Of a stretch of DNA of 62,135 bases, positions 9,001 to 62,135 are shown in pieces; within the stretch, counting starts at the first letter, position 1, and every line of letters begins with the position of its first letter. Position numbers: made by a program. The stretch comes from an uncultured Planctomycetales bacterium (GTDB lineage: Bacteria; Omnitrophota; Gorgyraeia; Gygaellales; Profunditerraquicolaceae), in NCBI GenBank assembly GCA_964487475.1, contig CAZAPM010000005.1, positions 62,001-124,135 on the forward strand. The letters are read 5' to 3'.

Positions 9001-12000
9001 AAGAGGCAGGGCGCGTATATGGTCAGGGTGACGCGAAAAGGTGACCTTGATCCGGAATTAGGAAGGAAGGTTTCGATCACGTCCCGTGCAGCCAAAGAGG
9101 TGCTCTCACGCAGGTTTGACGGAGGGATAAGCCTGTTACAGTATGAAAAGATCAAGAATAAGAGGGATGAGGTCAATTCCGAACTCTCGAAGATCAACGC
9201 TTCGAAAAGCAGCGGTTTCTTAGGGTTCCTTAAGGGAGCTCAGGCGTTGCTCCTGGGACGAACAGGAAGTTCGAACGCCAGGAAGTCCAGGGAGCTGCAG
9301 AGAGAGCTCGCAGACCTGGATTCTATCCTGAAGGACCATTATGATCCTGATATGGCGCAGGCAAAGGTAGCCCAGATCGCCTCCCAATTCGCCCAGTCGT
9401 ATTCAAACAATAACCAGGTTTCGGCAGCGGAGAAAGCCATTGCAGAGACAGTGGTTACAGCGGCGCAGGAGGGAAAGTGGCAGCAGGTGAGTGATTCGCT
9501 GGGGGCGCTTCAGGATGCCCGGTATGAAAGGATAGAGAAGGGTTTGAGCGAAATCGAAAAGGCCCTGGATAATATCGAAGCCGGAGTAGCTGCGTCGAAG
9601 CGCAGTCAATCACCCGAGACCGCACGCATGCTTGATGAGATAATGAAGCGGGCCGAAGGCAAAGAGATCAAGCCCGTTGACCCGACTACCGCCATCATTC
9701 CGGTCGTAAAAACAGAAGAACCCGTGGCTGAAGTCAAGCCGGTTGATCTGGTCTTGAGCGCTAAGCCGCCAGCCGCGGTGAATATTCAAGAGTCGGAGTT
9801 TGACACGCTGCAGAAGGATATAATGAAGGCGATCGCGGCAGAGGATGTAGATACTGCGACCGAGCTTACGAATAAACTAGAGAACCTTCTTATGAATAAA
9901 ATGAATAAAATAGAAGGGGATATGGGCAATGTGAATAAGAAGATGAAGGATATTGCTGCTCCGGTAGCTCCTAAGCCTGCAGCTGCGTCCCTTGTGGCGA
10001 ATCCATTGGTGCCGCTGGCAGATCCCAAGGGCGTCAATTCTGGCAAGACGATCGATGGGGTGAAGATAGGAAGCACGGTCATATCGAATGAGGTGGCAAA
10101 GGAGATAGGTCTGGATAAGCTAGAAGAACAGCCAAAGATTGATTTCCAGAACGAAGTCGAGGTGAGGAAGGTTATATTGAGCGAGGTTACTCAGATTGGA
10201 CAAAATTACGCAGAGTTTAAGCCTATGGCTGATAATATAATTGTTAAGATCAATAATAATGCGCCTATGTCAGAGGTGCTCCCAATGTTTGACAAGCTTG
10301 GAGAAGCGTTTACTAAGAGCGTAGAGAGTAAATTGTTCAAGAAATAATGTCCAATCTACATTTGTAAAGTCCAAATTTAAGTGGGTATATCTGATTTAAG
10401 GGGAAAATTTTCTGAGCCAAGGCTGGGGTAAATAATTGATTTAGAAAGGCAATAATTCGGTAGGGCGGGATAACAATTTGACCCCTTGGTGATGATTAAA
10501 TGGAGTATATGGGCTATTTCTTTTCCGGTAAAAAGATTAATTCAAAATCTTCCTTTCAAACCATTTCCTTTGGGCCTGCTATTTTTCAGCTGGATCAAAA
10601 GCCTTTTTGTTGCAGCGGTTACATTAGAAACCGTTTTCAAAATGACAAAAATCATGTCTTGACACTATATTATAATATGTTATATTATTAATGCAACGAA
10701 AGGGCAAACCTCAAGTGATTGAGGGGCGCAAAGCCACGGAACTTAGATCCAATAATCGTGATATTTTAAGTTGGCCGGGCTGCCGAATACGAGTAGTATT
10801 TGACAACTCGGTTTTTTTATTGGAAGTTCTTAACGAGTTTAAGAAATTTTTAACAAATAGTTTCAAAACTCGAAATGAAAAACCTTAGGGAGTTGATAGA
10901 AAACTGGGGGTTAGGGGGAAAACTTTCTATCGGCTCCTTTTTGCATATAGGAAAAAAGATAGATTCGGTAGTTGTGGAAGAGCCGATCCAGGGTCCCTTT
11001 GCCGAGGGGGTTGCACCGGCTGAGCCGCAATTCAAATCCAGCTTTAAAGCCTGGATCAGAGTTGTGGCTTTTATCGTTTTGGGGGTCTTTGTTCCGGAGC
11101 AGTTCGCGCAGGCTGCCGGATTCGATTATAGCGTTATCTGGAACCGACCCGGAGTTAATTCCTTTGCTCCGCAGTTAACGCCGACGCTTTCCCAGGCGAA
11201 CATTGCATTGGCAGTCAAGAACATCCTGCAGGACGTCGCGAACAAGCCGGTCAGCGAGATCAGCATCTCCGATTCTCTCACCCTCACTTTTGAGAAGCCT
11301 TTGAATATTACTTCCCGCCGTGTCGAAGAATTGTACAACTGGATGAAGGGAAAACCGTGCGGGACCAAGGCGCTGTATGATTTTCTGGCGCTGCGCGGCA
11401 AGAAAGTCTCCGAGGATGACATCGCGGTCCTGGCACTGTCCGTGGATATCCTCAACGATGTGGTCAAGCCCGTAGGAAACCCCAAGGTCATCAAGAACTC
11501 ACTTTTCGCCCTTTCAAAAGCAGCGGAATTCTTCGGGGATAAGGTGGCTGCTGTCAGGATCCCGCAGACCGATGAGGCGAACCTGCGTTCCCTGGTGCCT
11601 TTTATCGCGCACCTTGACGGGGACCACTACGTGCTGGTCACCAAAGTCGGCAGCGGAAGCGTCTATTTCACCGACTTGCACAAGGAAGTATTCCTCGCAA
11701 AGGAGAAATTCCTTGAGCGTTTCAGCGGTTTTGCGCTGGTCCCTGCGGAGAAAAAGGCGGAGTTCGAGACCATTGGTGATGCGGCCGCAAAAACCGTCTT
11801 GGGCGCCTTCGATGAGATCTCTTCCGGAGAATTCGGCCAGGTGGATGGCGATTTCGGAGTAACCGGAGGAACCACTTTCATCGGGCGCGGGTTCGTCAAC
11901 TCAGCCGACCTTGCCATTACTTCTGCGAGCAGCATACGTCCGATGTGGTATAATCCGCGGCCGATGATCATGACCTCAACCTCGCTGTATGACGCCCAAA

Positions 12001-60000: not shown

Positions 60001-62135
60001 CAAGCGAAGTGACCTTATCGCGAAGATTTCCAAGAAGATCAATGCGGTTAAAAGAGGCAACCTTAGCGCTTCTATTAATGCAGTTCATGAGTCAGTGATA
60101 TTTGACCTGCGTGCGTTGAGGGATGCAGTGGGAGACGAGGGTGCAGTTGAAGCAGAGCTTTATACCCTTATTGGCGGTAAGAGAAGCAATGATCCTGCCA
60201 AGAAGGAATTTGATCCGAATTGTCTGATTCATGTAATAAAAGAAGAAATGAAGCATTTCAAGTTCGCCGTGATCGTGGGTATGCGTTCGGAAAAGGGCCG
60301 CATATGCCCCATGTCTTCGGAAGATCCGTTCGGCGAGGACTCCTTGTATGCGAAGGTCCGTCAGCACGAAGAGCTTTGTGAGGGTACCGGTATTACCTGG
60401 GAGTTGATCTTGGATACCCAGAACTCCCCGGATAAGAGCGACGAGATCGTTAAAACGCTGTGCAAGGAAGATCGTATGAAGGAGTACTACGAGAACAAAC
60501 AGATCGTGGTGCTTACCATTTCCGAACCCGGGCCTACCATGGGTAAGGGCGGCAAGGTGACTTATGGTATGAATTATGCGGTTTCTTCAAGCGATGAGCA
60601 TCCGGTGCCTGCCGAGATCGTATTCTACACCGATGCCGACACCGCAGTCGATATGAGACACTCGGGCCTGCTCATGGGTGCTATGGCGCGCGCTTCGATC
60701 GTGAGGGCGCTTGTTGCCCACTTGCTTCCTAAGAAAGACAATGTGTTGCTTCCCGGCCCTATAAATGATTTCGTTGATAATCTCACTTTTGATGATTTGG
60801 AGGCTGATTTAGAGGCGATTTGTAATGAGTATCATATTGCGCAGCCTTGGTTCCGCATTGTCTTTTTTGACCCCAAAGGCAATCTTTACAAGAGTTTCTC
60901 TGATGCAAAGGTAAAACAGAAATTTGAAGGAGCTAAACAGGCGTTTGAAAGAATCAAGCAAGAGCCTGGGCAAACTGAGCAGGCGATCGAAAAAGCCAAA
61001 AGGGAGTTTGAAAAAGCTAAGCAGGAATTTGAAAATGCCAAAGCCGGTCTAAAGAACGCTATCGCAAATCATATTAACATGATTTCTATGTACTATGAAA
61101 GTTGCGAAAAGCTCATCGATGATTTCGTTAAGGATAATGCAGTAAAAATTTCGCTTTCGGCTTTACTGAAGACCGAGCCTGATATGAGTAATATCGTTAC
61201 TTTTGGTTCACGTTTCCCTGCATCCCTCGGCATCAACGGTTTCGCTATGCCCGGGCTTGATACATCGCCCGTTGCTGAAGAGAACGTGGTCAACCAGGCC
61301 GGCAAGGCGGTTAATCAGCAGTATCTTTTCCGTGAGGTCAGCTTCGAGGCTAGGGTCAAGGAGACCCAGTGTGGGTTCAAGGCGTATCCTCGCAAGATTG
61401 CTGCCGCGATCATGCCTATGATGCAGGATACCACCTTTTCCTTCGACACCGAGATGTTCAATCTGGCGTACCATGCGGGTGCGCAGTTCCGCGAGGTCGG
61501 AATCTTCTGGTCGGATTCCGCGGCTGATGCGTCCGGTACCAGCACCACCGAGCGCTGGAACATGTTCAAGGCGTGGATCGGACAGTATAAGAGATTCGCC
61601 AAGGTGCGCGGGTTCAAGACCATGCATGATGAGGATCTGGCGAAGCTCGAGCTGGCAGTGGATAAGGGCCTGGCCATGGCGCGCGCAAAAGAGAATACTC
61701 TGGACGTTGCCCGCGATATCGTGGAGTGGGGCAAGGGCCTGCCGAGCGCCGAGGTTACCTATAAGAATAGCTTCCTGGGCATCGATCCCCGCAAGGGAAC
61801 GAGCAAGGTGAATATCGACACCAAGGTTTCGGTGTGCCGTACCACCGCGGGTGAAGTGATCTTAAGCGCTGCGGAGCACCTGAAGTCCCGCCGCGAAGCG
61901 GCATTGGCGTCCCTGCAGGACCGTGAATCCTTCATGCTCGGGACCGATGCGCCGGTGGCTGCTCCTAAGGCGGCTAAGGTAAGCGTTGAGGCCCGCCAGC
62001 AGAACGTTGCATTGGTCTCCAGGGTCACCGGCCGCACCGTTTCGACAGCCGAAGAAGCAGCCGCGGCATATATCGCGTATCTGCGTTGGGCAGCGGGCGC
62101 GAACGCTGGTGCGCTGACCTTCACCCCCGAAGAGG

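What a model noticed while it worked through the whole genome (the two positions that open the first line are those of the whole stretch)
10693..62135. c-di-GMP riboswitch sits in front of the giant-protein gene across Gygaellales
A c-di-GMP-I riboswitch with a terminator-like element ends 88 nt upstream of a giant ORF whose first 23 kb the gene caller missed (start C5:72875, C39-like N-terminus, >17,000 aa over three scaffold gaps). The giant attack/adhesion protein is likely switched by c-di-GMP together with Tad and type IV pilins, a free-to-attached lifestyle switch. New: no regulatory input on Omnitrophota giant genes has been described.
Evidence so far: rna.tsv RF01051 C5:72693-72787, 66 bits; ORF 72875-95977 open; ortholog in 32/61 order genomes, open frames up to 68,606 aa; riboswitch over the gathering cut, same strand, upstream in 22/30 loci; riboswitch in 23/25 order genomes; other copies here precede Flp pilin C5:57983, g00713 and the gene pair ending in a pilin at C2:20522.
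(Added by a program. Inside this text positions count along the whole contig: contig position 62,001 is position 1 of the stretch shown here. "Call 12" and the like, gene names such as g00115 and contig names such as C1 are that model's own, and its searches are not shown. The text may have been shortened before it was handed on; [...] marks where a part breaks off. The agent that wrote the report below was given it as the finding of a first reader that could run no searches.)

Follow-up and report, generated by a model that had tools for sequence, protein, structure and literature searches.

The report
c-di-GMP ON-switch gates giant gene
A standard c-di-GMP-sensing RNA sits in front of a gene of more than 17,000 codons in an uncultured Omnitrophota-type bacterium and its relatives, and its built-in stop signal overlaps the sensor, so the giant protein is likely made only when c-di-GMP is high and is predicted to cut off its own front end at a conserved site.

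Summary
Confirmed. A c-di-GMP-I riboswitch (10693-10787, 66 bits) with its own promoter precedes the giant ORF at 10875.

The direction is predicted ON: the terminator takes the aptamer's 3' strand in 40 of 42 leaders tested, with compensatory changes. The riboswitch lies within 4.5 kb upstream in 42 of 56 scorable order loci, but in only 2 of 19 from other orders.

Public contigs give true sizes of 1 nt for gap 1 and 158 nt for gap 3, both in frame, so the 'frameshift' is a scaffold artefact. Gap 2 is unbridged.

The C39 domain is followed by a conserved double-glycine-type motif and then a hypervariable region. The paralog's predicted mature chain starts at that same residue, which suggests self-cleavage.

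Co-switching with pili is only partly supported: 13 of 29 pilin clusters carry the riboswitch, and this genome's pilin copies have terminators independent of the aptamer.

This is an ordinary riboswitch class in a context I did not find in print. The scan has reported both the riboswitch link and the cut site before on other genomes. Nothing is tested in vitro.

The parts
10659..10686 (+). sigma-70-type promoter (-35 box, 16-nt spacer, extended -10), ending 6 nt before the aptamer
   Evidence: 11 of 12 consensus match; a -10-like box in 40 of 43 ortholog leaders and a -35 box in most
10693..10787 (+). c-di-GMP-I (GEMM-I) aptamer
   Evidence: RF01051, 66.4 bits, cut-off 35
10773..10818 (+). intrinsic terminator: hairpin whose 5' arm is the aptamer's 3' strand, then seven U; mutually exclusive with the aptamer (predicted ON switch)
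   Evidence: -17.5 kcal/mol, z -3.75; -35.0 versus -35.5 kcal/mol for terminator and aptamer folds; covariation; 40 of 42 leaders
10826..10872 (+). conserved A/T-rich element with about 11-bp periodicity between terminator and start; role unknown
   Evidence: visible in the leader alignment; not tested further
10875..62135 (+). 5' part of the giant gene, about 17,070 codons in the window, running off the contig end; the reading frame is continuous across gaps 1 and 3 by true gap length
   Evidence: contig end overlaps C36 by 55 nt
11040..11117 (+). conserved signal-peptide-like segment (residues 56-81)
   Evidence: conserved in all 30 aligned orthologs; function inferred from hydrophobic core and AxA end
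11358..11760 (+). C39 cysteine peptidase domain (Cys162, His251, Asp267)
   Evidence: PF03412 31.9 bits, cut-off 22; Cys and His in 46 of 46, acidic residue in 37 of 46; best fold match LahT 6MPZ
11763..11807 (+). double-glycine-type recognition motif ending at Gly310-Ala311; predicted self-cleavage site before Phe312
   Evidence: Gly(-2) 46 of 46, G/A/S(-1) 46 of 46, I/V(-4) 46 of 46; column conservation falls from 0.71 to 0.19 after it; model confidence drops just after it
29466..29996 (+). LysM plus L,D-transpeptidase (YkuD) module inside the giant
   Evidence: Pfam E 3.5e-14 and 9.2e-14
33462..33737 (+). M23 peptidase domain inside the giant, reaching gap 3
   Evidence: Pfam E 1.8e-27
15710..15809 (.). 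scaffold gap 1; true size 1 nt in three runs (52 nt in a fourth), frame kept in both cases
   Evidence: tables 5, 5c, 8
31373..31472 (.). scaffold gap 2; not bridged; same frame on both sides
   Evidence: one search shows loose ends only
33746..33845 (.). scaffold gap 3; true size 158 nt, which puts both sides in one frame
   Evidence: runs X2 and X3 (two studies); the 158 letters were not shown in full, so absence of a stop is not seen
8042..8181 (+). second c-di-GMP-I riboswitch with overlapping terminator (predicted ON), promoter-like site at 8010-8038
8191..10347 (+). 718-aa secreted-type paralog of the giant's post-cleavage head; homology starts at its predicted signal-peptidase site and at giant residue 311
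   Evidence: 61% identity over 272 aa, E 5e-109; no Pfam or NCBIfam family
233..7936 (+). 3' end of the Tad/pilus locus and a 1121-aa gene upstream of the two riboswitch units
   Evidence: Tad PF13400 in 1293-2978; in two relatives a gene that begins alike is led by the riboswitch and abuts the giant

Best explanation
A class-I c-di-GMP riboswitch in the leader of the giant gene likely works as a transcriptional ON switch, so that the very long mRNA would be started only when c-di-GMP is high. RNA polymerase starts just before the aptamer (inferred). Without ligand, the hairpin downstream is predicted to zip into the aptamer's 3' strand and stop transcription at about +125 nt. With ligand, the aptamer holds that strand and transcription runs on. 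The protein is predicted to be exported by its N-terminal signal, and its own C39 domain likely cuts it after Gly310-Ala311, leaving a variable head. The chain further carries LysM, L,D-transpeptidase and M23 domains (shown) and probably totals about 53,000 aa over several contigs, ending before tandem PilZ genes (inferred). The likely purpose is to avoid the cost of a roughly 150-kb transcript until the cell is in a high-c-di-GMP, attached state (inferred).
For: Aptamer over cut-off. Promoter directly upstream and no promoter-like site between terminator and start. Terminator uses the aptamer's 3' strand in 40 of 42 leaders tested. On 23 aligned leaders, 86% of cells pair, 6 of 16 pairs change on both sides (0 of 500 shuffles), and slid controls pair 27-45%; further double changes are visible in L038, L039, L048, L051. 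The two folds are within 0.5 kcal/mol, and the terminator is favoured (p 0.78) when its 3' arm is just complete. Terminator probability falls when the aptamer is enforced in 35 of 44 relatives. Riboswitch upstream in 42 of 56 scorable order loci. Seven GGDEF, 20 PilZ and five HD_5 matches in 1.87 Mb. The same exclusive layout is a proven ON switch in Geobacter pilM (PMC9262584, passages). Cleavage: motif fits the C39 recognition rule (PMC10885120, passages), fold matches LahT, and the paralog begins at the same residue.
Against: No binding, termination or expression data. Once the U-tract is transcribed, equilibrium folding of this leader favours the aptamer with a long-range 5' pairing (p 0.7-0.8), so the switch may be leaky or kinetic; terminator probability stays 0.33 in the bound model for this copy. 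The bound-versus-free test partly follows from the overlap by construction, and kin are not independent. Nine of 44 relatives did not score ON (6 high in both states, 3 low in both). 14 of 56 order loci lack the riboswitch within 4.5 kb, and 17 of 19 loci from other orders lack it. In 26 of 41 leaders a short upstream ORF lies between terminator and giant, so further control is possible. Position -7 of the cleavage motif is A/S rather than Leu, and this copy has Ala where 39 of 46 have Glu.
Confidence: 0.78

Rival explanations
1. The promoter-aptamer-terminator unit makes a stand-alone small RNA (a c-di-GMP store or sensor), and the giant is transcribed mainly from another, downstream promoter.
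For: Strong promoter and terminator enclose the aptamer. Conserved elements of unknown role lie between terminator and start. A c-di-GMP riboswitch RNA was proposed as a reservoir in Bdellovibrio (PMC3627812, abstract).
Against: The terminator destroys the aptamer, with compensatory changes, which suits a switch and not a store. No sigma-70 site between terminator and start. The unit stays at the head of the transcription unit when other genes stand before the giant (L038-L040).
Confidence: 0.1
2. The switch is ON-type but its ligand is 3',3'-c-AMP-GMP, as in Geobacter.
For: Layout is that of the Geobacter pilM riboswitch; one ortholog (L015) has A at the specificity position.
Against: G at that position in 41 of 43 including this copy (the G/A rule is recalled). 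The five cyclases with an intact GGEEF/GGDDF-type motif all keep the Asp whose change to Ser/Thr marks hybrid enzymes (PMC9140294 passages).
Confidence: 0.05
3. The riboswitch is an OFF switch, or a relic with no effect: the gene is read through most of the time.
For: Full-length equilibrium fold keeps the aptamer without ligand. The stem of this copy has two mismatches. Other copies in this genome have separate terminators, and an earlier scan note reads one giant-gene leader elsewhere as OFF.
Against: Ligand cannot favour a terminator that consumes the binding-pocket strand. Pairing is conserved with double changes across genera, which argues against a relic.
Confidence: 0.07

Closest known systems
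c-di-GMP-I (GEMM-I) riboswitch, Rfam RF01051 / RF03167
   Same: Aptamer sequence and structure over the curated cut-off; GNRA loop; terminator platform.
   Different: Nothing unusual in the aptamer. The controlled gene is more than 50 kb (likely about 150 kb) long.
pilM riboswitch of Geobacter metallireducens (PMC9262584, passages read)
   Same: Transcriptional ON switch in which aptamer and terminator are mutually exclusive and the terminator takes the ligand-pairing C.
   Different: pilM senses c-AMP-GMP and controls a pilin gene; here G at the specificity position points to c-di-GMP.
Bc2 riboswitch before cap, Bacillus thuringiensis (PMC4933901, abstract and outline read)
   Same: c-di-GMP-I ON switch by termination in front of a surface adhesion protein.
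   Different: Cap is an ordinary-sized Gram-positive adhesin; no self-processing head or Tad locus.
Omnitrophota giant proteins ('Archaeovorins'; 10.1101/2023.11.21.568195, passages and one section read)
   Same: N-terminal C39 near a signal peptide, membrane segments, cell-wall enzymes, pilus/secretion locus upstream, PilZ genes downstream.
   Different: That main text has no 'riboswitch' and says cleavage points are unknown. No GGDEF match lies inside the giant pieces of this genome.
C39 peptidase domains of PCAT/AMS exporters (LahT 6MPZ, ComA, PCAT1)
   Same: Fold, catalytic Cys and His, and the leader rule (hydrophobic -12, -7, -4; GG/GA/GS).
   Different: No ABC transporter is fused; the motif is in the same chain about 10 residues behind the domain, and the enzyme would act after export.

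Membership tests
c-di-GMP-I riboswitch (RF01051) | covariance-model score above the gathering cut-off | tested here: met
   66.4 bits against 35
c-di-GMP-I riboswitch (RF01051) | GNRA tetraloop and conserved ligand-contact nucleotides (G20, A47, C92 in Vc2 numbering, recalled) | tested here: met
   GUGA loop and consensus letters in the alignment; G at the specificity position in 41 of 43
c-di-GMP-I riboswitch (RF01051) | binds c-di-GMP selectively | not testable with these tools
   needs in-line probing or calorimetry
transcriptional ON riboswitch (pilM type) | terminator hairpin mutually exclusive with the aptamer and followed by a U tract | tested here: met
   (computed structures only)
transcriptional ON riboswitch (pilM type) | ligand raises read-through | not testable with these tools
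   no RNA run holds the stretch
Peptidase C39 (PF03412) | profile score above cut-off, papain-like fold, catalytic Cys/His/Asp | tested here: met
   Asp/Glu in 37 of 46
PCAT/AMS exporter | C39 domain fused to an ABC transporter | tested here: not met
   no ABC domain in the window part scanned against Pfam; it works like the peptidase domain but is not a PCAT
double-glycine leader | hydrophobic -12, -7, -4 and GG/GA/GS at -2/-1 | tested here: met
   -12 L/I/V in 44 of 46, -7 A in 33 and S in 12, -4 I/V 46, G 46, A/G/S 46
double-glycine leader | cleavage occurs at that site | not testable with these tools
   indirect only: paralog boundary
Archaeovorin-type giant | pilus/secretion locus upstream, PilZ downstream, N-terminal C39, membrane segments | tested here: met
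   the PilZ pair follows the open frame on C16, whose link to this gene is inferred
Archaeovorin-type giant | HEAT repeats and SecA-like domains | tested here: inconclusive
   one sub-cut-off HEAT hit; pieces on other contigs were not scanned

The most novel reading that the evidence does not exclude
The front of the locus is a portable launch cassette: promoter, c-di-GMP ON switch, signal peptide, C39 protease and double-glycine site. Behind it, interchangeable prey-facing heads are swapped. The neighbouring riboswitch-led 718-aa gene is a free-standing copy of the current head. c-di-GMP would then gate, by one 125-nt decision, a self-processing polyprotein of about 53,000 aa, and act again through PilZ proteins at its far end, so that a small predator builds its attack coat only after attachment.
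Probability: 0.33. Interest if true: 0.8.

Novelty: new member of a known kind. Interest (0 to 1): 0.56.

Why it matters
Omnitrophota giant genes are among the longest known, and how they are controlled and processed is open. This gives two short, cheap handles that need no culture. One is a 125-nt leader whose ON behaviour can be tested by in vitro transcription. The other is a roughly 300-residue head whose predicted self-cleavage site is backed by a natural paralog starting at the same residue. The report also removes the doubt about the frameshift. The riboswitch itself is ordinary, the link is mostly limited to one order, and the scan has noted both points before on other genomes.

Tried and rejected
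Frameshift or two genes at gap 3: rejected by the true gap length. The TTGACA inside the terminator's 3' arm as a second -35 box: no matching -10, and it changes in step with the 5' arm. Hybrid (cGAMP) cyclase: not found among seven GGDEF matches. DGG punctuation suggested by earlier notes: not enriched here (0-3 per piece against 1.2-4.0 expected). A second C39 or internal copy of the motif in the giant pieces: none. First Tad test around TadB gave 3 of 29, but those loci mostly did not reach the operon head; it was replaced by the pilin-cluster test (13 of 29, profile search). Expression: no RNA holder listed, which is no evidence either way. Gap 2 remains unbridged. A duplex-versus-shuffle test was weak (26 of 46 rows at 10 or fewer of 200 shuffles) because it ignores the hairpin top. 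Named relatives: the scan of named genomes returned one unrelated weak hit, so the order name is unverified. Dropped as unscorable before counts: L019, L072, L073 (order) and L106 (class), whose contigs end just upstream; L056 in the terminator count (truncated aptamer match). No complex prediction was run.
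Full report
OBSERVATION. Rfam finds two c-di-GMP-I aptamers in the window: 10693-10787 (66.4 bits, cut-off 35) and 8042-8137. 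The genome has seven in all and none of 14 control genomes has one. A near-consensus promoter ends 6 nt before the first aptamer. The ORF starts at 10875. The frame is open to 33977, and a second frame runs from 33872 off the contig.

THE GAPS. Contigs from four public DNA runs (two studies) were laid on 15000-34600. Gap 1 is 1 nt in three runs and 52 nt in the fourth; both keep the frame. Gap 3 is 158 nt in two runs, 58 more than the placeholder, which brings the second frame into register with the first. The 158 letters were not printed in full, so a stop inside them is not excluded. Gap 2 was not bridged. The window part is about 17,070 codons. The contig end overlaps C36 by 55 nt and C22 overlaps C15. 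C23 and C16 are also long open frames, and C16's frame ends directly before two PilZ domains. The genome has one N-terminus of this type. A single gene of about 53,000 aa is the simplest reading, but the order of the pieces is not shown.

DIRECTION. The hairpin at 10773-10813 uses the aptamer's 3' strand as its 5' arm and ends in seven U. Terminator-enforced and aptamer-enforced folds differ by 0.5 kcal/mol. The terminator is favoured (0.78) when its 3' arm has just been made, and the aptamer regains 0.7-0.8 in longer transcripts. In relatives the same overlap was found in 40 of 42 leaders tested (the count includes this one, L056 was dropped, the two misses are family f4). On 23 aligned leaders, 86% of cells pair, six pairs change on both sides (0 of 500 shuffles), and slid controls give 27-45%. 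Related sequences can beat such shuffles, so the double changes in distant genera carry most of the weight. A sampling test gave ON in 35 of 44 relatives, high in both states in 6 and low in both in 3; the test partly follows from the overlap itself. The Geobacter pilM riboswitch has this layout and is an ON switch (PMC9262584, passages). Bc2 is a c-di-GMP ON switch before an adhesin (PMC4933901, abstract). The specificity position is G in 41 of 43 (rule recalled), and the intact cyclases keep the Asp of strict c-di-GMP makers.

SPREAD. Of 101 order genomes, 58 match the N-terminus and 92 have the riboswitch over cut-off. I examined 59 non-self N-terminus loci, of which three were unscorable. 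The riboswitch lies within 4.5 kb upstream on the same strand in 42 of 56: 39 as the direct leader, and three before one or two genes that abut the giant. Among the 14 misses, G007 has one 7.4 kb upstream, and G001, G011 and G008 have one 10-12 kb upstream at the head of the pilin/Tad cluster. No over-cut-off match lies nearby in G076, G039, G077, G095, G075, G017 or G025, and G036 and G068 have none at all. In other orders of the class, 2 of 19 scorable loci of the 20 fetched carry it; G174, a single-contig genome, has none before its giant. The link is therefore mostly an order-level trait.

PILI. The Tad genes lie upstream of the giant on the same strand in many genomes. The pilin cluster that heads them has its own riboswitch in 13 of 29 non-self loci, 9 with an overlapping terminator. 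In this genome only the giant and the 718-aa gene score ON. The Tad-pilin, C2-pilin and C10 copies have terminators that form in both states, so they may be OFF or constitutive. Co-regulation by c-di-GMP is plausible; same-direction switching is not shown here.

START AND LEADER. In 26 of 41 leaders the ATG about 90 nt after the aptamer opens a 21-32-codon ORF, and the giant begins further on. Here the later ATG reads ATA and the short ORF is fused in frame, so 10875 is a reasonable start.

THE PROTEIN HEAD. Residues 56-81 look like a signal peptide. A C39 domain follows, with Cys162 and His251 invariant in 46 of 46 and LahT 6MPZ as best fold match. About ten residues later comes a motif of the form [LIV]-[STD]-x-x-E-[AS]-K-x-[IV]-x-G-[AGS], which fits the C39 leader rule (PMC10885120, passages). 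Conservation falls from 0.71 to 0.19 right after it and the model's confidence ends three residues later; I could not measure distances to the active site. Independent support comes from the 718-aa neighbour: it is 61% identical to giant residues 311-580, and its predicted signal-peptidase site leaves the same first residue. The motif is also recognisable in most other-order loci. Further in lie LysM, L,D-transpeptidase and M23 domains, in line with the cell-wall-attack proposal.

LITERATURE. 'riboswitch' has no occurrence in the main text of West-Roberts 2023 (passages and section 11), the 2026 complete-genome preprint 10.64898/2026.06.07.730766 (passages) or Seymour 2023, PMC10066038 (passages). 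Searches listed no paper whose title or abstract makes the link (listings only), and one search listed only a review for the cut site. bioRxiv supplements were closed and subscription papers are not searched. West-Roberts already notes PilZ genes and GGDEF domains, so a c-di-GMP link was hinted at, and it proposes autocatalytic cleavage without sites. Seymour cites a 3-fold rise of giant peptides in attached Velamenicoccus cells. That fits an ON-when-attached logic but comes from another order, where the riboswitch is rare. Within the scan, 68 notes in at least 51 genomes match my riboswitch search words (all eight shown concern riboswitches before giant genes), and several describe the cut site. 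I reached both readings before those look-ups and do not count them as support.

VERDICT. Real and conserved. It is an ordinary riboswitch class in a context I did not find in print, predicted ON (0.78). Self-cleavage at Gly310-Ala311 is likely (about 0.7). Co-switching with pili is mixed. Interest 0.56.

Noticed in passing
window 8042-10347: Second riboswitch unit whose 718-aa product repeats the giant's post-cleavage head (61% over 272 aa) and then diverges into a coiled-coil-like tail.
   Followed up: yes
window 10826-10872 and ortholog leaders: Three A/T-rich repeats at about 11-bp spacing follow the terminator in most leaders; could be bent DNA, an operator or an antitermination loading site for the very long transcript.
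   Followed up: no
window 10875-10960; L010-L071 leaders: Short upstream ORF containing a conserved G-rich segment, free in 26 of 41 leaders and fused to the next gene in others.
   Followed up: partly
L020, L025, L030, L038, L039, L040, L047, L049, L071, just before the aptamer: A second copy of the aptamer's 5' stem strand lies at the transcript start in 9 of 44 leaders; it could act as a decoy partner.
   Followed up: no
promoter spacers and terminator loops of ortholog leaders: A CGACG-type motif occurs in the promoter spacer (19 of 43) and in the terminator loop (25 of 43), both in 17; absent from this window. Possible operator.
   Followed up: no
L015 aptamer (G061:C22): A instead of G at the specificity position, a candidate c-AMP-GMP variant.
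   Followed up: no
L068-L070 (G036, G100, G068): A sub-lineage whose motif ends in Gly-Lys and whose catalytic patterns were not matched; two of the three genomes have no riboswitch at all.
   Followed up: no
   Followed up: partly
G000 C2:65636-80668 and C32: A separate 5,011-aa protein and a small-contig ORF with a similar signal-peptide start, without C39 or riboswitch match.
   Followed up: no
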